From the IMG/VR virus record IMGVR_UViG_2654587728_000015: a DNA stretch of 39,903 nt; one strand, given 5' to 3'. Below are positions 541 to 15,079 of the stretch, piece after piece. Origin of the DNA: a virus (Duplodnaviria > Heunggongvirae > Uroviricota > Caudoviricetes). Position 1 is the first letter of the stretch, and each line of letters starts with the position of its first letter. Below the pieces are notes generated by a model. The model worked only from the letters and a program-made list of their open reading frames with translations. It was not told the origin of the DNA and made no database searches. The position numbers and the translations under genes are program-made.

Positions 541-1578
541 TTAACGCTTATCCGCCACCAGTTTGAGCGCGTGTTCCAGCACATTAATGTCTGCACCCGC
601 TTTATGGGCATTTTCACTTAAATAACGCCGCCACTGCCGCGCGCCAGGAATACCCTGGAACAAGCCCAGCATATGCCGGGTAATATGGCCGAGATACGTA
701 CCCTGGCTGAGTTCACGCTCAATGTACGGATACATGGCGCGCACTACCGCCACCGGATCAGCATCAGTATCCGAGGAACCAAAAATCTCTCGGTCTACCG
801 CCGCCAGAATACCCGGATTCTGATACGCCTCGCGCCCGACCATCACGCCATCCATATGTTGCAAATGCGCTTTAGCTTCTTCCAGCGACTTGATACCACC
901 GTTAATCGACATCGTCAGATGCGGAAAGTCACGCTTCAGTTGATACACACGCGGATAATCGAGCGGCGGGATCTCACGGTTTTCTTTCGGACTTAACCCA
1001 GAAAGCCAGGCTTTACGTGCGTGGATGATGAACATCTCACACTCACCTTTGCCGGAAACGGTGTTGATGAAATCGCAGAGAAATTCATAGCTGTCCTGAT
1101 CATCGATGCCAATACGCGTTTTCACCGTCACCGGAATCGACACCACATCGCGCATCGCTTTCACGCAGTCGGCAACCAGCTGCGCATTACCCATCAGACA
1201 CGCACCAAACATGCCGTTCTGCACCCGGTCAGACGGGCAGCCGACATTCAGGTTGATCTCATCGTATCCACGCGCTTCTGCCAGCTTCGCACACTGTGCC
1301 AGCGCCGCCGGATCGCTACCCCCGAGTTGCAACGCTACCGGATGTTCTTCTTCACTGTACGCCAGGTAATCACCTTTACCGTGAATAATCGCCCCTGTGG
1401 TCACCATTTCGGTATACAGCAACGTATTGCGGGAAAGCAGACGCAAGAAATAACGGCAATGTCTGTCCGTCCAGTCGAGCATAGGAGCAATGCTAAACCG
1501 AGAATTCCAGTAAACACCAGTTTTTTCAGGCATCACGCTGGTTTGATTAATTTTTTGTGTTTCATGATTATCGTGCAT
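541..1578 (-). CDS. dusA: tRNA-dihydrouridine synthase A (host gene; 5' end is the known target of DusA-associated integrases)
   Basis: 345-aa ORF with Dus family motifs ([31 protein letters not shown]); divergent integrase immediately upstream. Confidence 0.9.
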
Positions 1579-1610
1579 TTTTGAACATTTCAGGCTATTT
1601 TTCTCGCGTT

Positions 1611-1646
1611 AGGTTCCCGCTCAGGTTCCCACGTTTTATGGGAACC
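1611..1646. promoter_or_regulatory. Three copies of GGTTCCC (two direct, one inverted) between dusA start and int start; candidate integrase-binding or int-promoter control sites within the attL region
   Basis: Motif copies at ~1612, ~1624 and inverted at ~1640, read directly. Confidence 0.3.
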
Positions 1647-1666
1647 CGAAATAACGAGGTCGTGTA

Positions 1667-2764
1667 ATGGCGTACTATAACATAGAGAAACGACTAAAAT
1701 CCGATGGCACACCACGCTATCGCTGTAATGTGATTATCAAAGAAAAAGGTGTTATCACTTACAGGGAAAGCAAAACATTCCCTAAACATGCTCATGCCAA
1801 AACATGGGGCACACAGAAAGTGATGGAATTAGATCTATATGGCATTCCATCATCAAATGCAGTTGACGGACTTACAGTCCGTGACTTACTACACAAATAT
1901 TTAAATGACCCAAATGCCGGAGGTAAAGCAGGCCGTACTAAAAGATATGTGCTGGAACTGCTTATGGATAGTGACATCTCCGCGATCAAACTATCTGAAC
2001 TGACAGAAAATGACGTAATTGAACATTGCAGGCTAAGAAACAACGCTGGCGCAGGTCCAGCAACAGTCAGCCACGATGTTAGTTATCTTGGCAGTGTTCT
2101 GGATGCGGCCAAACCTGTATACGGAATTAATTACACATCAAACCCGGCGAAAAGTGCTCGTCCATATCTACTTAAACTTGGTTTGATTGGTAAATCAAAC
2201 CGTCGTAATCGTAGACCAGCATCTGATGAACTGGACATGCTCATTGAAGGCCTTCAACAACGATCTACTCATAAATGCTCAAAAATTCCGTTCGTTGATA
2301 TCCTCAAATTTTCTGTGTGGTCCTGTATGCGAATCGGAGAAGTATGCCGGTTACGATGGGAAGATCTCGACCAGGAACAAAAATCTATACTCGTAAGAGA
2401 CAGGAAAGATCCACGCAAAAAGGAAGGCAACCACATGAAAGTAGCCTTGCTTGGGGAAGCCTGGGATATCGTCCAACGACAGCCCAAAAAATCGGAATTC
2501 ATTTTTCCATATAACAGCACTTCTGTTACTGCGGGATTTCAGAGGGTAAGAAGCAAATTAGGTATTAAGGATCTGCGATACCATGATTTGCGTAGAGAAG
2601 GGGCAAGTCGCTTATTTGAGGCTGGTTTTAGTATTGAGGAAGTAGCCCAGGTTACAGGGCATCGTTCATTAAACGTGCTATGGCAGGTATATACCGAACT
2701 GTATCCGAAATCTTTACATAATCGTTTTGAAGAGCTCCAAAGGAGCAGAAATAAGACCCCTTGA
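1667..2764 (+). CDS. int: Tyrosine-type site-specific integrase (DusA-associated integrase family likely)
   Basis: 365-aa ORF; C-terminal catalytic region with R...HDLRR...GHRS...Y pattern; located at prophage end divergent from dusA; SD ACGAGG 7 nt upstream of ATG. Confidence 0.85.
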   Translation: MAYYNIEKRLKSDGTPRYRCNVIIKEKGVITYRESKTFPKHAHAKTWGTQKVMELDLYGIPSSNAVDGLTVRDLLHKYLNDPNAGGKAGRTKRYVLELLMDSDISAIKLSELTENDVIEHCRLRNNAGAGPATVSHDVSYLGSVLDAAKPVYGINYTSNPAKSARPYLLKLGLIGKSNRRNRRPASDELDMLIEGLQQRSTHKCSKIPFVDILKFSVWSCMRIGEVCRLRWEDLDQEQKSILVRDRKDPRKKEGNHMKVALLGEAWDIVQRQPKKSEFIFPYNSTSVTAGFQRVRSKLGIKDLRYHDLRREGASRLFEAGFSIEEVAQVTGHRSLNVLWQVYTELYPKSLHNRFEELQRSRNKTP

Positions 2765-3217: not shown

Positions 3218-3781
3218 TTATTTCGTTTGAATGCCAGTAACAGGAAATCGTTTATATAGGGTTGATAGCCCAACGTTATAGATACGTGCAACATAACGCC
3301 GTGATTTCCCTGCCGCTATGAGCGCTCCCATCTGTTGCCACTGCTCGTCGCTAAACTTCGGTCTACGCCCACCAATCCGGCCTTTGGATCTGGCAATAGC
3401 CAAACCAGCTAAAGTTCGCTCGCTATTCAAATCAGATTCATACTGCGCAGCAGAAAGAATATTACGGAAATTATAGCGACCACTTGCTGTTTTCAGGTCT
3501 ACGCCATCTGTAATACTCCGAAAATTAACACCTTTTTCGTGCAGATTTTGAAACATCAATAGCGCATGCAGCACATTTCTCCCTATCCGATCTAACTTCC
3601 AGACAATCAACTCATCTCCACTTTTCATCACCGTAATTAATTCCTTTAACACAGGGCGATTAGCTGTTCTGCCACTGGCATATTCTTCATAAATTCGCTC
3701 ACAGCCAGCTGACTCAAGTGCAAGACGTTGCAACTCTGTATCCTGATGATTTGTTGATACACGAACATACCCGTAAATCAT
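3218..3781 (-). CDS. Serine recombinase, DNA invertase of the Gin/Pin/Hin family
   Basis: 187-aa ORF starting YGYVRVSTNHQDTELQ with catalytic serine, resolvase core and C-terminal HTH (VGLSTLYKRF); position after tail fibre and tfa as in Mu gin / e14 pinE. Confidence 0.9.
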   Translation of the reverse strand: MIYGYVRVSTNHQDTELQRLALESAGCERIYEEYASGRTANRPVLKELITVMKSGDELIVWKLDRIGRNVLHALLMFQNLHEKGVNFRSITDGVDLKTASGRYNFRNILSAAQYESDLNSERTLAGLAIARSKGRIGGRRPKFSDEQWQQMGALIAAGKSRRYVARIYNVGLSTLYKRFPVTGIQTK

Positions 3782-3786
3782 GAGTG

Positions 3787-3813
3787 CTTCTCCTGTTGTA
3801 AAAACAGGAGAAG
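3787..3813 (-). promoter_or_regulatory. Perfect 10-bp hairpin (CTTCTCCTGT/ACAGGAGAAG) whose 3' arm contains the invertase Shine-Dalgarno; candidate translational sequestration element
   Basis: Inverted repeat read directly; AGGAG lies inside the stem, ~8 nt upstream of invertase ATG; no U-tract after the stem. Confidence 0.35.
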
Positions 3814-3949
3814 AGGCGAAATATCACCTGATTCAGAAAAATATTTCAAAGGTTCGTTTCGAACAGGAGGAGTAGCGGAGGGCTATGTTGCTTAGTTTGA
3901 AAATAGCTGGTCTTGCTGATGCGCATTGATGTAGCAAGACCAGTATGGT

Positions 3950-4318
3950 TTAAAGTTCCGGGATGACAGGCCAGTTAACATGCTCAGGGTCGGTTGTTAC
4001 ATCAACAGCCTTAACCTGATTCTTATATAAAAGCCACGCCGAAAGTTTAGCTCTGTTGGCATCGCTGATTTCACCCAGCATCAGCTCTGTGCGCCAGTCG
4101 AGCATAATTGCATCAGCGGCGGACAGTAATCGCTGTCGCTCATTTTCAGCAGCCTGGATGAGTTGTTCATGAGTCGGTGGGGGATTAATAATTGCCATAG
4201 CCTCACTTCTGGTGATTGGCACAAGCCCTTCTTTGATAAAAGCATCCTGTGTGCCATACGCATCGTAGGCATATACGACGTTATTTTCATCTTTGTAATG
4301 CTTCATCATTGTTATCAT
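3950..4318 (-). CDS. Tail fibre assembly protein (Tfa/U-like chaperone)
   Basis: 122-aa ORF with Tfa motifs ([11 protein letters not shown]...PTHEQL...[16 protein letters not shown]); ATGA start/stop overlap with tail-fibre gene. Confidence 0.85.
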
Positions 4319-5295
4319 TTTTTATCCACCTCTACCCAGGTAACATCTGACACTGTTCCTGAAAACTGCTGCACAATATAGGTCGCACCGGCAGGAACCA
4401 TGAATGCGATAGTTGCTCTTTGCCCTGCAAGATTTGTTGTCTGAGAGCCGCGAAAATTAGCCGAATTACCATCCACATTAACGTTGGCGCTCAGAAATGA
4501 ACTACCGTCAGACAGCACCGCATTGACGCTTACAAATATGGCGAAAGACTGGCTGTTGGTGTATACGACACCGAGATTTCTAGATTTCATTCCGCATTGA
4601 CCAAACAACCCTTTCATATCTGAATAGTTTTGTGATGCAGCAAGTGATGATGCAGCAACACCAGATTCCGTCGATGTTCTGGAATCAGATACGCGGATAA
4701 TTCCCTTGTTTGTTGGGGTCGCATCATTGGTCTTGCCTTGCAACGCCTGTATATCCGCATAATTCATCGCTGCCGCTTTTGCTGTTGCAGCAAGCGTTTC
4801 AGATTCGGATACCCTTGATGATGTAAGTTGAACAATTCCTTTCTGTGTCGTAGTTGAATCCTGAGTTTTGTTTTGCAAAGATTTTATGTCCGTATAGTTT
4901 TGCGCGACAGCATTAGCTGTGGCTGCAATATCCTCTGCACCCGATACCCGCGATGACGTTAACCGGACTAAACCCACCTGTGTTGTTGATGCGTTTTTAA
5001 TACCAAGGTTTTCGAGAGCCGTTTTCACCGTGCCATCCGATTTGATATCACCAAACGGATTCTTGCGGCTTAACAGCAGCGCACGAAGCGCGGTAAGCAG
5101 CTGATCGTGCCGCGCCTTCTCCAGACTGGCACCGGATGCCTCCACCACGCTGCAAAGCTCCTCCTGCAACATGTCAAAGTAGTCATCATCCAGATCGGTG
5201 GCAGGCGTGCCGGTCTGGGGGTTACCACGGGTAAAACCGTTCTTACCCGCGCCGAACTTATCCTTCTGCGCGGTTTTCGTGTCTATACGATGCAT
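4315..5295 (-). CDS. Tail fibre protein (Mu S / e14 Stf-like)
   Basis: 326-aa ORF between gp48-like gene and tfa; internal tandem repeats; C-terminus typical of side tail fibres. Confidence 0.8.
4606..4989 (-). repeat. Three diverged tandem ~40-aa coding repeats inside the tail-fibre gene
   Basis: Repeated units [38 protein letters not shown] / [38 protein letters not shown] / [34 protein letters not shown]. Confidence 0.7.
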
Positions 5296-10299: not shown

Positions 10300-10314
10300 A
10301 TAAACTCCGGATAC

Positions 10315-10370
10315 AAAAAACCCGCCAAATCTGCTTTGTCAGTTATTTACATCGCAGAAGATGTGGCGGG
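10315..10370 (-). terminator. Candidate terminator after the moron gene (imperfect long hairpin CCCGCC...GGCGGG followed by TTTTTT on minus strand)
   Basis: GC-rich imperfect inverted repeat plus 6-T run between moron stop (10390) and gp43-like start (10299). Confidence 0.35.
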
Positions 10371-10389
10371 AACCTAATATTTTTAATTA

Positions 10390-10884
10390 CTATCTGAGTT
10401 GAACATCAATGGAATAAATATCACCACTCTTTATAAATTTAGAATCTGTCCTTTCATCAAAAGATTCAAATGACTGTACCTTTAAAAACTTTTTCATTTT
10501 ATTTTCAAAAATACTTTCATTAACACCAGTTAAATACTTGAACGCTCTACCAGCAAGGACCTCATTACTTAAATCCATTGTGTTTTTATTGTCTTTGAAA
10601 AACCAAACAATAACCTTTTGTGGGCATGATGGATTATAAACAGATATATAAAACTGCGGCTCATATTTTTCATCAGCGTCATCACTAAGCATTTCTTCAG
10701 AAGATAATTCTCTTCTGAATTCATATTGCCGCTTAGTTATTCCTTCATCCTTTATTATCTCTTGCTTAACTGGTGCAATACCTATAGAAGAGATTAATTC
10801 TGACTCATTAAAGCTGAACTTACACTCCTCCGCGGCCAAGTTAAAAGATAAAAGTGCAGATATAAAAAAAACAAAGATACGCAT
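10390..10884 (-). CDS. AT-rich moron: secreted/periplasmic protein of unknown function with N-terminal signal peptide
   Basis: ORF 10390..10902 with best RBS at internal ATG 10884 (MRIFVFFISALLSFNLAAEE...); hydrophobic signal peptide without lipobox; strongly AT-rich relative to flanking tail genes. Confidence 0.7.
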   Translation of the reverse strand: MRIFVFFISALLSFNLAAEECKFSFNESELISSIGIAPVKQEIIKDEGITKRQYEFRRELSSEEMLSDDADEKYEPQFYISVYNPSCPQKVIVWFFKDNKNTMDLSNEVLAGRAFKYLTGVNESIFENKMKKFLKVQSFESFDERTDSKFIKSGDIYSIDVQLR

Positions 10885-10904
10885 AATCATCCCTTCAATC
10901 ATTT

Positions 10905-10945
10905 GTAAGGAATGATTATATTAACTACTTAAAGCTGAAAACCCA
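10905..10945 (-). promoter_or_regulatory. Candidate moron promoter (perfect TATAAT -10 on minus strand ~25 nt upstream of RBS; weak -35)
   Basis: TATAAT hexamer (plus-strand ATTATA at ~10915..10920) in AT-rich intergenic region between tape measure stop and moron start. Confidence 0.3.
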
Positions 10946-10983
10946 AATTATGCCAGACAAAAACACATTAATCATTTTGTACA

Positions 10984-12816
10984 CTACCTGAACCGCGTAT
11001 AGCCAACATCATGGCTGACATCAAAACCGCTGGATCGCGTTTCCATAACCCGCATACCCGGAGGCGAATTCACAAAAGATACCTTGATCTCACCATCAAC
11101 TTTTGGCACAGAAGCTTTGTTAATCATGAAGGGATTCGAGCCTGTGGCATCGGAGGCGTTGTTTGCCTGAGCCGGATCCACCACCGGATAAGGAGTGTAT
11201 CCCCGTGGCGGTATTCCCGTCCCATAAGCATCATAAGCACCCGCGCCCCACTGCGCCGAGTTAATGGCATCGACCGTGTCACCGGAACTGTCGGTAAACC
11301 ATTCAATAATCGGCTTCAGCTTATCCCACATATCCTGAAACCACTTAACAACCGGTCCCCAGTTATTGATCACCATCCCAAGCGGCGACCAGGCAAAAAC
11401 CTTCTTCAGAAGTTCCCAGCCTGCCTCAAAATAAGGACCAATGGTTTCCCAGAGCTTCTTGAAATAAGGTCCGACAACATCCCAGTTAGTGATAATTAAT
11501 CCCGCAGCCAGAGCAATCGCCGTCGCAATCATGCCAATCGGCGTCATCGACATAATCCTGCTGACAATACTGATGGCACTGCCCACGCCCATCAATCCCA
11601 GTTTCAGAATCGCAAGACCGGCAGCAAGCCCGACGACGCCGCGAATAACCCGGGGATTTTCATCCGCAAACTTCGTGAATTTCTCCCCCAACTCCCCCAG
11701 CCATTGTGTGATATTTTTAGCGTCACCAGAAAATGCGCCGCCAATAGCCGCAAGGCCGTTAGTTGCGGTCCCTGTCATTGCCTCCCACAGGTTGGACAGC
11801 GTACCAAGCTGTGCCTGAACACGTTTATTCAGGCTGGCCTGTTTATTCATCTTCTGCTGGATCTGATCGTAGCCATCCTTTCCTTTATCGATTAGTGCAT
11901 TGACCACCTGAAGGGTTTCGGCATCATCACCAAATATTGCCTTAAGTACACCTGTTCGCTTAACGTCGGTCAGTTTTCGCAGCTTTGCCAGTTGCCTGAA
12001 CATGTTATCAAGACCGCCAAAACTTCCTTTGCCGTCAGTAAAATCGAGCTGTACCCCGAGTTTCTGGCGGGCCATAACTTTATTAACGTCCCTGATTTTC
12101 TTAACGCTTAATCCGGACTGGATAACTTTTCGCAGGGCATTACCTGCCGACTCCCCGTTCATCCCCATCTGATCCATCATGACGCTGATGGGGGCAAGGC
12201 TCTGTGCAGCCTGAAGACCGTCCTTGTTCACCATCTTCAGAACAGAACTGGTTTTAGTGAAGAAGGACAACATGTTGGTATCGTCAACGCCCAGATAAAA
12301 CGCCTTCTGGATAGTGTCGAACAGCCCCATCATGTCTTCTGACGCCGTTCCGGTAGCATCCTGCATCTTTGCAGCAAACTCAGCAGCCGCTTCCGGTGTT
12401 TTTTTCAGTTGTACCGCAAGATAAGCTGTCGCTTTACCCACACCGCCAAGAATGTTTTCTGCCGGGATCCCCTGACGCACCAGCATCTGCATCATGTTCT
12501 GGAAATCAGCCGTTGTACCGGGTAGCTGGTTACCCAGGCCAATAGCCAGTTTATTGATGTCCTGAAAGCGCTTTCCAACCTCGCCGTTCGCATCCATCAT
12601 GGCGACTTTCAGCCCGGTGGCGGCGTTTTCCTGATCGGCATAAGATTTCAGGGAAAGCGTCAGACCCGCTGCCAGTCCGCCACCAAGCGCCAGCCCACCC
12701 TGTGACGCTTCTTCCGCCTGGCGTTTAAATCCCCGGATTTTCTTTTGCATTTTCGACAGCGCGGGAGAAAGCCTGTCGACACCGGTGATCAACGCCTTAA
12801 GCTCAAATTCCGCCAT
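10984..12816 (-). CDS. Tail tape measure protein
   Basis: 610-aa ORF with long helical N-terminal part and glycine/hydrophobic C-terminal region; follows tail chaperone with frameshift. Confidence 0.85.
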   Translation of the reverse strand: MAEFELKALITGVDRLSPALSKMQKKIRGFKRQAEEASQGGLALGGGLAAGLTLSLKSYADQENAATGLKVAMMDANGEVGKRFQDINKLAIGLGNQLPGTTADFQNMMQMLVRQGIPAENILGGVGKATAYLAVQLKKTPEAAAEFAAKMQDATGTASEDMMGLFDTIQKAFYLGVDDTNMLSFFTKTSSVLKMVNKDGLQAAQSLAPISVMMDQMGMNGESAGNALRKVIQSGLSVKKIRDVNKVMARQKLGVQLDFTDGKGSFGGLDNMFRQLAKLRKLTDVKRTGVLKAIFGDDAETLQVVNALIDKGKDGYDQIQQKMNKQASLNKRVQAQLGTLSNLWEAMTGTATNGLAAIGGAFSGDAKNITQWLGELGEKFTKFADENPRVIRGVVGLAAGLAILKLGLMGVGSAISIVSRIMSMTPIGMIATAIALAAGLIITNWDVVGPYFKKLWETIGPYFEAGWELLKKVFAWSPLGMVINNWGPVVKWFQDMWDKLKPIIEWFTDSSGDTVDAINSAQWGAGAYDAYGTGIPPRGYTPYPVVDPAQANNASDATGSNPFMINKASVPKVDGEIKVSFVNSPPGMRVMETRSSGFDVSHDVGYTRFR

Positions 12817-13227
12817 GTGTGCGTTTCTCCTGCTCTATCCTGTTTGCCTGACTGACCAGTAAGGGAATTTCACTGATCGGCATATTCAGCAATTCGAAAG
12901 GATTAATGCGCCAGTAGCTGGCGCAGTCAAAGAAGCGATCAGTGAGGTATTCAGCCGTCAGGCCTGGAGGAAAAAACCAGCCACAAGCCACGCCGCTGCA
13001 TTCAGGTCTGCCGGAGACATCTGGTCGACAGAGCTTTGCGGCACTTTCGCCAGCCGCACAATGTATTTCGACACCACATGTGCCAGAAGTCTGACGGACT
13101 CATCCTGATTCATCTGGTAGGGATACCCCAGCTCGCGGACATCCTTCCCGGTGGGCTCATCAAACTCCAGTACGGAGAGTGTCTCACCATGAGCGATAAT
13201 CGGTTTCTTTAACTCAAGCTCTTTCAT
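12803..13227 (-). CDS. Tail assembly chaperone, predicted -1 frameshift-extended form (GT-like)
   Basis: -1 frame ORF 12803..12991 overlaps the 3' end of the chaperone gene and the tape-measure start; fusion reads ...GWFF then PPGLTAEY... Confidence 0.6.
12958..13227 (-). CDS. Tail assembly chaperone (short form; lambda G / Mu gp41 analog)
   Basis: 89-aa ORF between tail tube and tape measure genes; ends at slippery site. Confidence 0.8.
   Translation of the reverse strand: MKELELKKPIIAHGETLSVLEFDEPTGKDVRELGYPYQMNQDESVRLLAHVVSKYIVRLAKVPQSSVDQMSPADLNAAAWLVAGFFLQA
12970..12976 (-). other. Programmed -1 ribosomal frameshift slippery heptamer T_TTT_TTC
   Basis: Minus-strand sequence GCT GGT TTT TTC CTC; 0-frame encodes ...AGFFLQA*, -1 frame encodes FFPPGLT; matches X_XXY_YYZ. 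Confidence 0.65.
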
Positions 13228-13583
13228 TACTGGTAATCCCCTTCTTCACCGTGGAACTCAAGATCAACCGTGCCTTCTTCGGCATTATGGTTCGCTTCGC
13301 CGTGCAGCCAGGCGGACGACAATACATAGACCTGACCGTTCGCCAGCTCGGCAGTGATGGTCATCTCATCAGACGAGGTGATTTTGCTCACCGGAAAATT
13401 CTTCGGCACCTTGAAGGTCCCTTTGACATAAGGCGCACGGTGAGTTTCCTTGCGGTCCACTGAACCGTCCAGGCCGATGATGTCATCATTGACCGTCCTG
13501 TTCATGGGCACCTCAATGCCGCCGGTCAGCGATAGCTGTTGACCGTCAATTTTGAAATAACAGGTTCCCCCGATACGGGCCAT
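13227..13583 (-). CDS. Tail tube protein (Mu gp40-like)
   Basis: 118-aa ORF immediately after sheath gene. Confidence 0.8.
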   Translation of the reverse strand: MARIGGTCYFKIDGQQLSLTGGIEVPMNRTVNDDIIGLDGSVDRKETHRAPYVKGTFKVPKNFPVSKITSSDEMTITAELANGQVYVLSSAWLHGEANHNAEEGTVDLEFHGEEGDYQ

Positions 13584-15079
13584 TATGCAGACTCCTCTGA
13601 ATACTGAAGACGGAACTGGTTAACCACGGCAAAAACACGCAACTGGTTAACATAGTCAGGCGGGAACAGCGTGTTCAGGCGGTTCGGATCGCTGGCATCA
13701 CGCTCCACAACCAGGTACTGCTTAAACAGTTCGTAGTTTTCCACGATCCCCGCACGCTCAAGCTGACGGTAGGTTGCCAGCAGTTCCCCTTTGATCACCG
13801 CCGGTGTGACAATCGCCTGACCGGGACCAAAGCGGGTACCGTCGCTGGCAAGCTTGTGACGCCCGTACTTACTGGTAATGACGGATTTCAGTTTGCGCAG
13901 CACATACGCGCTGGTATGCAGCGTCTCGCTGTCGAGGTAGCTGTTATCCGCAACACCGTAAGCGTTTTTCCTGTACGTGGTGACATCACGCTGAATGCGC
14001 AGCACCCCGCTTTCGACATACGCCGTTGCCACGCCATGAGACAGCAGGGTCTGTTGTTCGGTCATCGTGAACCGTTTCCCCTTCGGCGCAGGCAGCATAC
14101 CCACCAGCTCACCGGTCTGCGTGGGACGTGCCGGATCGTTGCGAATAAACACCGCTGCGCGGGCGGTACGGCTTGCCGCCAGCTCATCGGCAGGCGTCTG
14201 GGTGTCTTTTTCGTACCCAGCCAGGGTAATGTGCTGCTGGTTAAACTGGTCACCTGCGGTCACCAGTTCTGACAGCGTGCCGATCTTTGCCGTATACACA
14301 TGACCATACAGCTGACGCGCATAGCTCCAGCGACCGCTGGTATCGTTCATCTCGGTCACCAGCGTGTTAACGGAGGCCGTGTCGTTGAACGGCAGACCGA
14401 TATAATCAAACGGCTCATCCGCCATTGCAGCCACCGCGCCGGTGAGAACCGGAGCGCCCGTTCCGGCGGTCCCCGTCGCCACGGCAATCTGTACGCCCGC
14501 TGGCAGCACTTCGCCCCCACCGAAGCCGTAGTAATTGAGGCTGACAGGAATTTCATTCCCGCAAAGCCCCTTATGACGCGCGGTCAGTGTGACCACGCCT
14601 GCCGAAGATGAGGCAGTAAACGGCAGGGCCGGAACGGCATTGATGGCATCCTGGATACTGCTGGCAATCGTCGCGACGTTATCGCCGTTGGTCACCGGAG
14701 CCTGCACGCGGGTACGTCCCACATAGACATTCACCGTGCCGGTTTCGGTTGCCGCCCCGGTCACCGTCAGCGTAACCGTTGCCGCCGCGCCTGTGGCTTC
14801 CGGAACGGCAATCACATACAGCTCACCAAACGGGTCGGTCTGGCGATAAGCCTCGACCATACGCGCCAGCTGACTTCCCGCACCACAAATCTGGCGTGCA
14901 TAGTCTGCCGACGGCATCAGCACCAGACTGTTGGCAACAATCTCTGCACCGTTATTGGCGTGACCAATCAGCAACGATGCCCCGCTGTCCTGTGCAGTAT
15001 TCGCCGCCTGGTTATCCATTTCCGCATAAAACAGCGGAACCAGCGTATTCGACGGAATGGTGTTAAAGCTTATCGTCAT
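13583..15079 (-). CDS. Contractile tail sheath protein (Mu L-like)
   Basis: 498-aa ORF preceding tube gene; size and position typical of sheath. Confidence 0.85.
   Translation of the reverse strand: MTISFNTIPSNTLVPLFYAEMDNQAANTAQDSGASLLIGHANNGAEIVANSLVLMPSADYARQICGAGSQLARMVEAYRQTDPFGELYVIAVPEATGAAATVTLTVTGAATETGTVNVYVGRTRVQAPVTNGDNVATIASSIQDAINAVPALPFTASSSAGVVTLTARHKGLCGNEIPVSLNYYGFGGGEVLPAGVQIAVATGTAGTGAPVLTGAVAAMADEPFDYIGLPFNDTASVNTLVTEMNDTSGRWSYARQLYGHVYTAKIGTLSELVTAGDQFNQQHITLAGYEKDTQTPADELAASRTARAAVFIRNDPARPTQTGELVGMLPAPKGKRFTMTEQQTLLSHGVATAYVESGVLRIQRDVTTYRKNAYGVADNSYLDSETLHTSAYVLRKLKSVITSKYGRHKLASDGTRFGPGQAIVTPAVIKGELLATYRQLERAGIVENYELFKQYLVVERDASDPNRLNTLFPPDYVNQLRVFAVVNQFRLQYSEESA

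What the first reader, a model, noticed from the sequence alone, without database searches (positions are those of the whole stretch)
12803..13227. Programmed -1 frameshift in the tail assembly chaperone (T_TTT_TTC)
The chaperone ORF ends immediately after GGT TTT TTC, and a -1 frame ORF continues from exactly this point across the gap into the start of the tape-measure gene. The two ORF-track translations share the overlap (...AGFF versus ...GWFFPPGL), confirming the slippery heptamer at ~12970..12976 (minus strand). This is the conserved G/GT-type frameshift of long-tailed phages, here in a Mu-like tail module.
Basis: partly seen in the sequence, partly recalled or inferred. Interest (0 to 1): 0.45.

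Follow-up and report, generated by a model that had tools for sequence, protein, structure and literature searches.

The report
Tail chaperone -1 frameshift, P2-type
This prophage makes a short and a long version of its tail-assembly chaperone from one start codon, by a ribosome slip at TTTTTTC; this is a well-known phage trick, correctly spotted here but not annotated in public records.

Summary
On the minus strand, an 89-aa chaperone gene (13227..12958, Pfam PF10109) lies between the tail-tube and tape-measure genes. It carries an in-frame T_TTT_TTC at 12976..12970, three codons before its stop. The -1 frame stays open from there to 12803 and overlaps the tape-measure start. A slip gives a 141-aa fusion.

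A lone heptamer is not significant, so the case rests on comparison. Among 115 distinct close-clade sequences, 114 keep GGT_TTT_TTC and one has CGT_TTT_TTC, while neighbouring synonymous sites vary. A second clade keeps T_TTT_TTT at the homologous codon, and phage P2's proven E/E+E' site (T_TTT_TTG) aligns there too. The extension is under purifying selection only in the -1 frame. The apparent GTG start of the -1 ORF is not conserved.

The window is an SfV-like prophage. Its tail is Mu-like, but the recoding is P2-like; Mu itself is reported to shift by -2.

No conserved RNA structure lies at the usual 5-9 nt spacing. A codon-invariant 8-bp hairpin (12925..12907) lies 44 nt downstream in this clade only; its role is unknown.

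Verdict: ordinary, a new member of a known kind. Public records do not annotate the long form.

The parts
12958..13227 (-). Tail assembly chaperone, short (frame-0) product, 89 aa, ending AGFFLQA*
   Evidence: ORF. PF10109 Phage_TAC_7, E=2.4e-15, 56.7 bits. phrog_166 'tail'. PGAP calls it 'phage tail assembly protein'.
12970..12976 (-). Slippery heptamer T_TTT_TTC, phased as GG[T TTT TTC]
   Evidence: The codons GGT TTT TTC CCT are invariant in 30 representatives below 97% identity, while neighbouring synonymous sites vary. Of 115 distinct sequences, 114 have GGTTTTTTC and 1 has CGTTTTTTC.
12958..12960 (-). Frame-0 stop codon TGA, 9 nt after the heptamer
   Evidence: The stop position is conserved in this clade as TGA or TAA, except L216, which stops one codon earlier at TAG. 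This explains the near-invariant GGC CTG codons of the -1 frame, which are dual-coding.
12803..12970 (-). -1 frame extension (E'-like), 55 aa plus stop: PPGLTAEYLTDRFFDCASYWRINPFELLNMPISEIPLLVSQANRIEQEKRTHGGI*. The long product is join(13227..12970, 12970..12803), 141 aa.
   Evidence: phrog_32181 (function unknown), E=5e-40. pN is far below pS only in the -1 frame. It aligns with P2 E' in the full-length fusion alignment. It does not reach PF06528.
12907..12925 (-). Stable hairpin U-GCGCCAG-cua-CUGGCGC-A (8 bp, 3-nt loop, -12.9 kcal/mol). It starts 44 nt after the heptamer, 32 nt after the frame-0 stop and 90 nt before the tape-measure ATG. Role unknown.
   Evidence: pair probabilities 0.93-1.0. 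The codons TGC GCC .. TAC TGG CGC are invariant in 30 representatives while the loop and flanking synonymous sites vary. The only stem changes among 115 distinct sequences are two C-to-U changes that keep G.U pairs. All cells are paired but there is no covariation. It is absent from the SfIV/ST64B clade. P2 does not share this sequence; a different 6-bp hairpin is predicted at the homologous codons there, and its conservation could not be tested. There is no Rfam match and no T-run.
10984..12816 (-). Tail tape measure gene. Its ATG (12816..12814) lies 11 nt upstream of the stop of the -1 extension.
   Evidence: PF10145, phrog_28 and phrog_17727. An AGGAG lies 10 nt upstream of the ATG.
13227..13583 (-). 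Tail tube gene, immediately upstream; its stop overlaps the chaperone start.
   Evidence: PF10618, E=2.4e-33.
13583..15079 (-). Tail sheath gene
   Evidence: PF04984, PF17482 and PF17481. SfV orf11 is annotated 'similar to phage Mu GpL'.

Best explanation
The region is the tail-assembly-chaperone recoding cassette of an SfV-like temperate myovirus prophage. Most ribosomes that start at 13227 read frame 0 and stop at 12958, which gives the 89-aa chaperone. A minority slip back one base with tRNA-Phe on UUU and UUC of U_UUU_UUC (12976..12970). These ribosomes continue in the -1 frame to 12803 and make a 141-aa protein with the same N-terminal domain plus a 55-residue E'-like tail.

By analogy with lambda gpG/gpGT and P2 gpE/gpE+E', the shared domain would coat the tape-measure protein and the extension would recruit the tube subunit. 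A fixed short:long ratio would then be set by slip frequency.

Shown here: the anatomy, the family of the N-terminal domain, conservation of the site, coding selection on the -1 frame, and the absence of a conserved independent start. Inferred: that the slip is ribosomal, its efficiency, and the protein functions.
For: Anatomy and phase of the heptamer.

Family and gene order: PF10109 for the N-terminal part, with sheath, tube, chaperone and tape-measure genes in that order.

P2 comparison: the RefSeq-annotated -1 site of P2 E+E' is T_TTT_TTG at codon 83, against codon 84 here. The two fusion proteins align end to end, and the FF at the junction is invariant across 8 lineages down to 21% identity.

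Survey: 331 fetched loci contain both parts, and 324 have the extension in the -1 frame. All 23 distinct SfIV/ST64B-clade sequences in the -1 arrangement keep T_TTT_TTT. In the close clade GGT TTT TTC is codon-invariant although pairwise identity falls to 62%. In the SfIV/ST64B clade the only run of adjacent invariant codons is TTT TTT TAC at the shift site; one isolated CTG is the only other invariant codon.

Selection: in the extension, pN/pS is for example 0.049/0.535 and 0.141/0.812 in the -1 frame, and about 1 or higher in the other two frames.

No independent start: the GTG at the head of the -1 ORF is replaced by ATG or CTG in relatives, and no Shine-Dalgarno sequence is conserved.

Protein databases: nearly all relatives are the 89-aa form, and full-length in-frame versions are rare singletons.

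Motif competence: U_UU.U_UU.C is an experimentally shift-competent heptamer in E. coli and is used by IS elements (PMC4066793).
Against: No protein, ribosome-profiling or reporter data exist for this phage group in anything I could read.

In an E. coli reporter the bare UUUUUUC heptamer gave only 0.12% frameshifting without a stimulator (PMC4066793 Table S3). No conserved stimulatory structure or SD-like element lies at the canonical distance. A biologically useful level would therefore need a stimulator I could not identify.

The extension does not reach the Pfam model of P2 E' (PF06528), and the profile comparison with P2 is weak (E=0.035). Homology of the extensions therefore rests on position and a few shared residues.
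Confidence: 0.88

Rival explanations
1. The same long protein is made by transcriptional slippage. RNA polymerase adds one extra U at the T6 run, so a fraction of mRNAs carries the two parts in frame and the ribosome does not slip.
For: The site is a pure homopolymer in every lineage: T6 here and in P2, T7 in the SfIV/ST64B clade. The protein product would be identical (GFF-PPGL). Genomic or assembly variants with one extra base at or next to the run exist (L105 with T8, L025/L026 with an extra G). PMC4066793 notes that U7 runs are avoided in E. coli genes, possibly because of transcriptional slippage.
Against: From my own knowledge of the field, not tested here, appreciable slippage by E. coli RNA polymerase is described for runs of about 8-9 or more. 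The run is kept in the exact X_XXY_YYZ phase in all lineages, which the transcriptional model does not require; this is confounded, however, by conservation of the Phe-Phe dipeptide. The P2 homologue is annotated as a translational frameshift in RefSeq, and Christie et al. 2002 describe it as such in their title, as cited in PMC3091744 and PMC5009743.
Confidence: 0.07
2. The -1 ORF is an independent small gene (62 aa, GTG at 12991) translated from its own start. One phage record annotates it this way, as a 'hypothetical protein'.
For: the ORF listing reports a GTG-initiated 62-aa ORF at 12991..12803. ON470584 annotates the equivalent 60-aa CDS. A PHROG family (phrog_32181) exists for such ORF calls.
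Against: The GTG is not conserved: relatives have ATG, CTG or nothing there. No Shine-Dalgarno sequence precedes it. What is conserved is the heptamer and the frame relationship. In the SfIV/ST64B clade and in P2 the -1 frame has no consistent start either.
Confidence: 0.03
3. There is no recoding. The downstream open frame is a chance ORF, or the remnant of a mutation in a decaying prophage.
For: In-frame XXXYYYZ motifs are common in this window (54 in ORFs of at least 100 aa), and some spurious ORFs also have longer -1 continuations. RefSeq and PGAP leave the 141 nt unannotated.
Against: Purifying selection acts on the -1 frame only. The arrangement is identical in plaque-forming or inducible phages (SfV, SfII, SfI, EPP-1, AH07) and in 324 of 331 loci. 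The region is present in 918 of 5426 complete E. coli genomes.
Confidence: 0.02

Closest known systems
Phage P2 gpE / gpE+E' (-1 frameshift at T_TTT_TTG in the FETUD tail operon)
   Same: The N-terminal domain belongs to the same Pfam family (PF10109). The sizes match: 89/141 aa here against 91/142 aa in P2. The position is the same, after the tube gene and before the tape-measure gene, which the extension overlaps. The slip is on a T6N heptamer at codon 84 against 83, right after a Gly-Phe. The extension shares a W-x2-P-x-E-L...A-x-R pattern. No canonical downstream stimulator is present in either; for P2 this is stated in PMC3091744.
   Different: The last base of the heptamer is C, not G. 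The frame-0 stop lies 3 codons after the site, against 6 in P2. The extension does not reach the P2 GpE' Pfam model PF06528, and overall identity is about 21%. This lineage has a codon-invariant hairpin 44 nt downstream, whose sequence P2 does not share. The surrounding tail genes are Mu-like rather than P2-like.
Phage lambda gpG / gpGT (-1 frameshift at G_GGA_AAG)
   Same: The logic is the same: two chaperone forms with a shared N-terminus, encoded between the major tail and tape-measure genes, with the long form made by a low-frequency -1 slip. The ratio is reported to be critical for tail assembly (PMC5009743).
   Different: No detectable sequence similarity. The heptamer and the slipping tRNAs differ. 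Lambda has a non-contractile tail, whereas this is a contractile-tail phage.
Phage Mu gp41 (tail assembly chaperone, reported -2 frameshift)
   Same: The tail module is related: SfV sheath, tube and gp38 homologues are annotated as similar to Mu L, M and gp38. The gene order is the same. The Pfam family name covers 'E, or 41 or 14'.
   Different: Mu gp41 is 144 aa and has no in-frame XXXYYYZ heptamer. Mu is cited as using -2 rather than -1 frameshifting (PMC5009743).

Membership tests
Phage_TAC_7 (PF10109; P2 gpE / Mu gp41 tail assembly chaperones) | Sequence match to the family model above the curated cut-off | tested here: met
   56.7 bits against a cut-off of 25, E=2.4e-15, residues 4-86 on model positions 2-78 of 79.
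Tail-assembly-chaperone programmed frameshift (lambda G/GT and P2 E/E+E' kind) | The gene lies between the major tail (tube) gene and the tape-measure gene | tested here: met
   Tube gene 13583..13227, chaperone 13227..12958, tape measure 12816..10984.
Tail-assembly-chaperone programmed frameshift (lambda G/GT and P2 E/E+E' kind) | [quoted passage not shown] | tested here: met
   T_TTT_TTC at codons 85-86 of 89. The -1 frame is open for 55 further codons and ends 14 nt inside the tape-measure gene.
Tail-assembly-chaperone programmed frameshift (lambda G/GT and P2 E/E+E' kind) | The slippery site is conserved in relatives beyond what the protein sequence requires | tested here: met
   GGT TTT TTC is codon-invariant in 30 representatives (62-97% identity) while adjacent Ala and Val codons use 3-4 synonyms. 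114 of 115 distinct sequences have it. T_TTT_TTT is kept in the SfIV/ST64B clade and T_TTT_TTG in P2.
Tail-assembly-chaperone programmed frameshift (lambda G/GT and P2 E/E+E' kind) | The extension evolves as a protein in the shifted frame and lacks its own conserved start | tested here: met
   pN is far below pS only in the -1 frame. The GTG at 12991 is not conserved.
Tail-assembly-chaperone programmed frameshift (lambda G/GT and P2 E/E+E' kind) | Both products are made from one start at a set ratio, and both are needed for tail assembly | not testable with these tools
   This needs protein detection and genetics. I found no data for SfV-like phages in the searchable literature.
Phage_P2_GpE (PF06528; the E' extension of P2) | Sequence match of the extension to the family model | tested here: not met
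   P2 E+E' scores 76.3 bits. The window extension gives no hit even at E<=10. hhalign of the clade profile against P2 gives E=0.035, probability 1.4%. The resemblance is positional plus a few residues.
Mu-type -2 frameshift (gp41) | Shift into the -2 (=+1) frame gives the long product | tested here: not met
   The +1/-2 frame after the site closes after a few codons (...VFSSRPDG*). The long open frame is -1.
Canonical stimulated -1 PRF (dnaX or IS3 type) | A conserved hairpin or pseudoknot 5-9 nt downstream, and/or an SD-like element 6-17 nt upstream | tested here: not met
   The weak GGCC/GGCU stem at +5 is broken by free synonymous variation. The upstream 12 nt vary in 19 ways with no SD. 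The only conserved structure starts at +44.

The most novel reading that the evidence does not exclude
The codon-invariant 8-bp hairpin at 12925..12907 lies 44 nt past the slip site, in a stretch that only frameshifted ribosomes translate. It may be a functional RNA element of a kind not described for tail-chaperone frameshift cassettes. One possibility is a distal modulator that raises the otherwise very low slip frequency on bare U_UUU_UUC. Another is a decay or processing barrier that uncouples abundant sheath, tube and chaperone mRNA from the low-copy tape-measure message.
Probability: 0.2. Interest if true: 0.5.

Novelty: new member of a known kind. Interest (0 to 1): 0.28.

Why it matters
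The practical value is annotation. This prophage type occurs in about 17% of complete E. coli genomes (918 of 5426) and in the Shigella serotype-converting phages. Yet RefSeq/PGAP and the phage records I inspected either leave the 141-nt stretch blank or call it a separate hypothetical ORF, so an essential-looking tail protein is missing from proteomes.

Scientifically it adds one more lineage to the rule that long-tailed phages make two chaperone forms by recoding. It also shows a Mu-like tail module using the P2-style -1 solution rather than Mu's -2.

One open point is worth an experiment. A bare U6C heptamer shifts only about 0.1% in E. coli reporters, so the native context must supply something. 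The conserved distal hairpin is the only candidate visible in the sequence.

Tried and rejected
- Downstream stimulatory structure at the canonical spacing. The 4-bp GGCC/GGCU stem 5 nt after the heptamer and the longer stems in the MFE fold (z=-2.9) are not conserved. Their third-codon positions vary without compensation.
- Upstream SD-like stimulator. None was found, and the region varies freely.
- Hairpin as intrinsic terminator, known RNA family or repeated DNA site. No T-run follows it, there is no Rfam match, and the window holds only one exact copy of the palindrome.
- Covariation test of the hairpin. It is uninformative because the stem never varies, so the evidence is synonymous-site invariance only. 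Synonymous recoding of the single sequence gave a fold at least as stable in 5.5% of trials.
- Hairpin at the homologous place in other clades. The SfIV/ST64B clade shows no synonymous constraint beyond the slip site. P2 has a different 6-bp hairpin there, but the P2-like sample was too uniform to test.
- Trailing-ribosome collision model for the +44 hairpin. I rejected it because about 37 nt between P sites does not fit a disome, and only already-shifted ribosomes reach the hairpin.
- Homology of the extension to P2 E' by Pfam, NCBIfam and hhalign. Not significant.
- PDB sequence search. Only spurious weak hits.
- Papers I tried to read but which are not held: Christie 2002 and the SfV genome paper. 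Whether Xu et al. 2004 listed SfV could not be checked.
- First attempt at search for related loci with the 8-lineage alignment failed because the alignment was too divergent.
Full report
**What is there.**

Read on the minus strand, the region holds four genes in a row:

- a tail sheath gene (15079..13583; PF04984, PF17482, PF17481);
- a tail tube gene (13583..13227; PF10618);
- an 89-aa ORF (13227..12958);
- a tape-measure gene (12816..10984; PF10145), after a 141-nt stretch with no frame-0 gene.

The 89-aa protein belongs to PF10109, 'Phage tail assembly chaperone proteins, E, or 41 or 14' (56.7 bits, cut-off 25). Its last codons are GCT GGT TTT TTC CTC CAG GCC TGA. The heptamer T_TTT_TTC therefore sits at 12976..12970 in the phase needed for tandem -1 slippage of two tRNA-Phe.

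The -1 frame reads GWFFPPGLTAEY... and stays open to the TGA at 12805..12803, 14 nt past the tape-measure ATG. A slip gives a 141-aa fusion. The only inaccuracy is that the short ORF ends three codons after the heptamer, not immediately.

**Is it more than chance?**

Taken alone, no. In-frame XXXYYYZ heptamers are common in this window (54 in ORFs of at least 100 aa). TTTTTTC occurs 16 times against 9.4 expected. The case rests on comparison with relatives.

**Identity of the element.**

The window is an SfV/SfII/SfI-like prophage. It is 99% identical to these phages over 12700..13700. It lies next to dusA and has an integrase. The same 461 bases occur in 918 of 5426 complete E. coli genomes.

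No public record I inspected annotates a joined CDS. SfV, SfII, EPP-1, AH07 and RefSeq E. coli list only the short protein. One record calls the -1 ORF a separate hypothetical protein.

**Conservation.**

I first compared eight lineages: the window, EPP-1, AH07, SfIV, phiP27, ST64B, YeP1 and P2. All have a T6N heptamer in the same phase at the homologous codon. All have a -1 frame that encodes a related peptide. Their frame-0 tails are unrelated and differ in length.

The eight conceptual fusion proteins align end to end, and the Phe-Phe at the junction is invariant. P2's site is the RefSeq-annotated E/E+E' -1 frameshift (TTTTTTG, 91 and 142 aa, per PMC3091744).

I then fetched relatives from genome, viral and metagenome collections. 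Of 331 loci with both parts, 324 have the extension in the -1 frame. The results by clade were:

- Close clade: among 115 distinct sequences, 114 read GGTTTTTTC and one reads CGTTTTTTC, while the 12 nt upstream occur in 19 synonymous variants.
- Close clade, 30 representatives (62-97% identity): the codons GGT TTT TTC CCT are invariant, whereas other Gly, Ala, Val and Pro codons use 2-4 synonyms.
- SfIV/ST64B clade: all 23 distinct sequences in the -1 arrangement keep T_TTT_TTT. The only run of adjacent invariant codons is TTT TTT TAC at the site; one isolated CTG is the only other invariant codon.

**Coding test.**

In the 52 codons after the site, non-synonymous differences are far below synonymous ones in the -1 frame. 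Examples are pN/pS 0.049/0.535, 0.141/0.812 and 0.27/0.61. In the other two frames the ratio is about 1 or above. The chaperone body behaves the same way in frame 0. The extension is therefore translated in the -1 frame.

The GTG that the ORF listing uses as its start is replaced by ATG or CTG in relatives, and no SD sequence precedes it. This argues against independent initiation.

In a 5.8-billion-protein database almost all relatives are the 89-aa form. In-frame full-length versions are single-member clusters on short contigs. A few loci also carry a one-base indel at or near the run: L025/L026, L105 and L106. These are either sequencing errors or rare mutants. They show incidentally that the two parts can be read as one polypeptide.

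**Mechanism and its weak point.**

U_UU.U_UU.C is a shift-competent motif in E. coli and is used by IS elements (PMC4066793). In that study, however, it gave only 0.12% frameshifting without a stimulator, 0.9% with the IS911 stimulator and 7.6% with the IS3 pseudoknot (Table S3). P2's frameshift is described as 2-3 times more efficient than lambda's roughly 1:30 (PMC5009743). Something in the native context probably helps.

I found no conserved helper at the usual places. The small stem 5 nt downstream and the larger MFE stems are broken by uncompensated synonymous changes. The upstream region varies freely and has no SD-like element. This agrees with what is reported for P2 and its relatives (PMC3091744).

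**A conserved distal hairpin.**

The synonymous-site profile shows one further cluster of invariant codons that dual coding does not explain: TGC GCC AGY TAC TGG CGC (extension residues C-A-S-Y-W-R). It forms U-GCGCCAG-cua-CUGGCGC-A at 12925..12907. The stem is 8 bp, the energy is -12.9 kcal/mol, and pair probabilities are 0.93-1.0 in a 300-nt context.

- Among 115 distinct sequences the only stem substitutions are two C-to-U changes that keep G.U pairs.
- The first loop base (C, T or A) varies freely, and so do the flanking synonymous sites.
- Because the stem never varies there is no covariation. A sequence-specific constraint cannot be excluded.
- In the single sequence, synonymous recoding gives an equally stable fold in 5.5% of trials.

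The hairpin starts 44 nt after the heptamer, 32 nt after the frame-0 stop and 90 nt before the tape-measure ATG. That is far outside the spacing at which stimulators act; outcomes change with 1-2 nt of spacer (PMC3458567). It has no T-run, no Rfam match and no second copy in the window. It is absent from the SfIV/ST64B clade, and P2 does not share this sequence. I record it as unexplained. A decay or processing barrier in a rarely translated stretch, or an unconventional modulator of the shift, are speculations.

**Comparison with known systems.**

The cassette works like lambda G/GT. It is most like P2 E/E+E': same N-terminal family, sizes, position, T6N site and approximate codon. Membership of the chaperone family PF10109 is met.

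The extension does not reach PF06528, the P2 E' model (hhalign E=0.035). Its homology to E' is therefore positional.

The tail module around it is Mu-like. Mu gp41, however, lacks an in-frame heptamer and is cited as using -2 frameshifting. 'Mu-like' describes the neighbourhood, not the recoding.

**Verdict.**

This is an ordinary, expected feature of a long-tailed phage. It is new only in that this widespread lineage is not annotated with it. A small unexplained hairpin may merit one experiment.

Noticed in passing
window 12907..12925 (minus strand): Codon-invariant 8-bp GC-rich hairpin inside the -1 extension, 44 nt after the slippery site. It is conserved in all 115 distinct close-clade sequences, but absent from the SfIV/ST64B clade, and P2 does not share the sequence.
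   Followed up: yes
L025:1501-1923, L026:1501-1923, L105:1495-1910, L106:1501-1914; proteins P0001-P0003: Rare natural or assembly variants in which chaperone and extension are in one frame: an extra G before the T-run, T8 instead of T7, or a later indel. L225 and L256 carry a weakened G_TTT_TTY site. I cannot tell sequencing errors from real mutants.
   Followed up: partly
window 10300..11000; ORF 10902..10390 (minus strand): Low-GC island (30-35% against about 52% around it) between the tape-measure and DNA-circulation genes. It encodes a 170-aa protein with a hydrophobic, signal-peptide-like N-terminus. It has no Pfam hit and matches phrog_8976 (function unknown). It looks like a moron inserted in the tail operon.
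   Followed up: partly
window 541..2764: A dihydrouridine synthase gene (Dus family, 1578..541) lies directly next to a tyrosine integrase (1667..2764). This suggests the prophage is integrated at dusA.
   Followed up: no
window 3218..5295 (minus strand): A serine recombinase/invertase (resolvase plus HTH_7, 3781..3218) lies beside the tail-fibre-assembly gene (4318..3950) and the tail-fibre gene (5295..4315). The layout resembles the Mu Gin/G-segment host-range switch. I did not look for inverted repeats.
   Followed up: no
window 12803..12816: The extension ends THGGI* here but THG* in SfV and most relatives. The difference comes from a synonymous GCG/GCT change in codon 2 of the overlapping tape-measure gene, which removes the earlier stop.
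   Followed up: yes
L010 (phage Mu) 2553..3132: Mu gp41 (144 aa) has no in-frame XXXYYYZ heptamer anywhere in the gene. This is consistent with the literature statement that Mu uses a -2 shift, so closely related tail modules use different recoding solutions.
   Followed up: partly
window 12958..12976 and the literature (PMC4066793 Table S3): Bare UUUUUUC and UUUUUUG heptamers give only about 0.12% -1 frameshifting in E. coli reporters, far below what is reported for P2 E/E'. The native stimulator of this whole class is therefore unidentified.
   Followed up: partly
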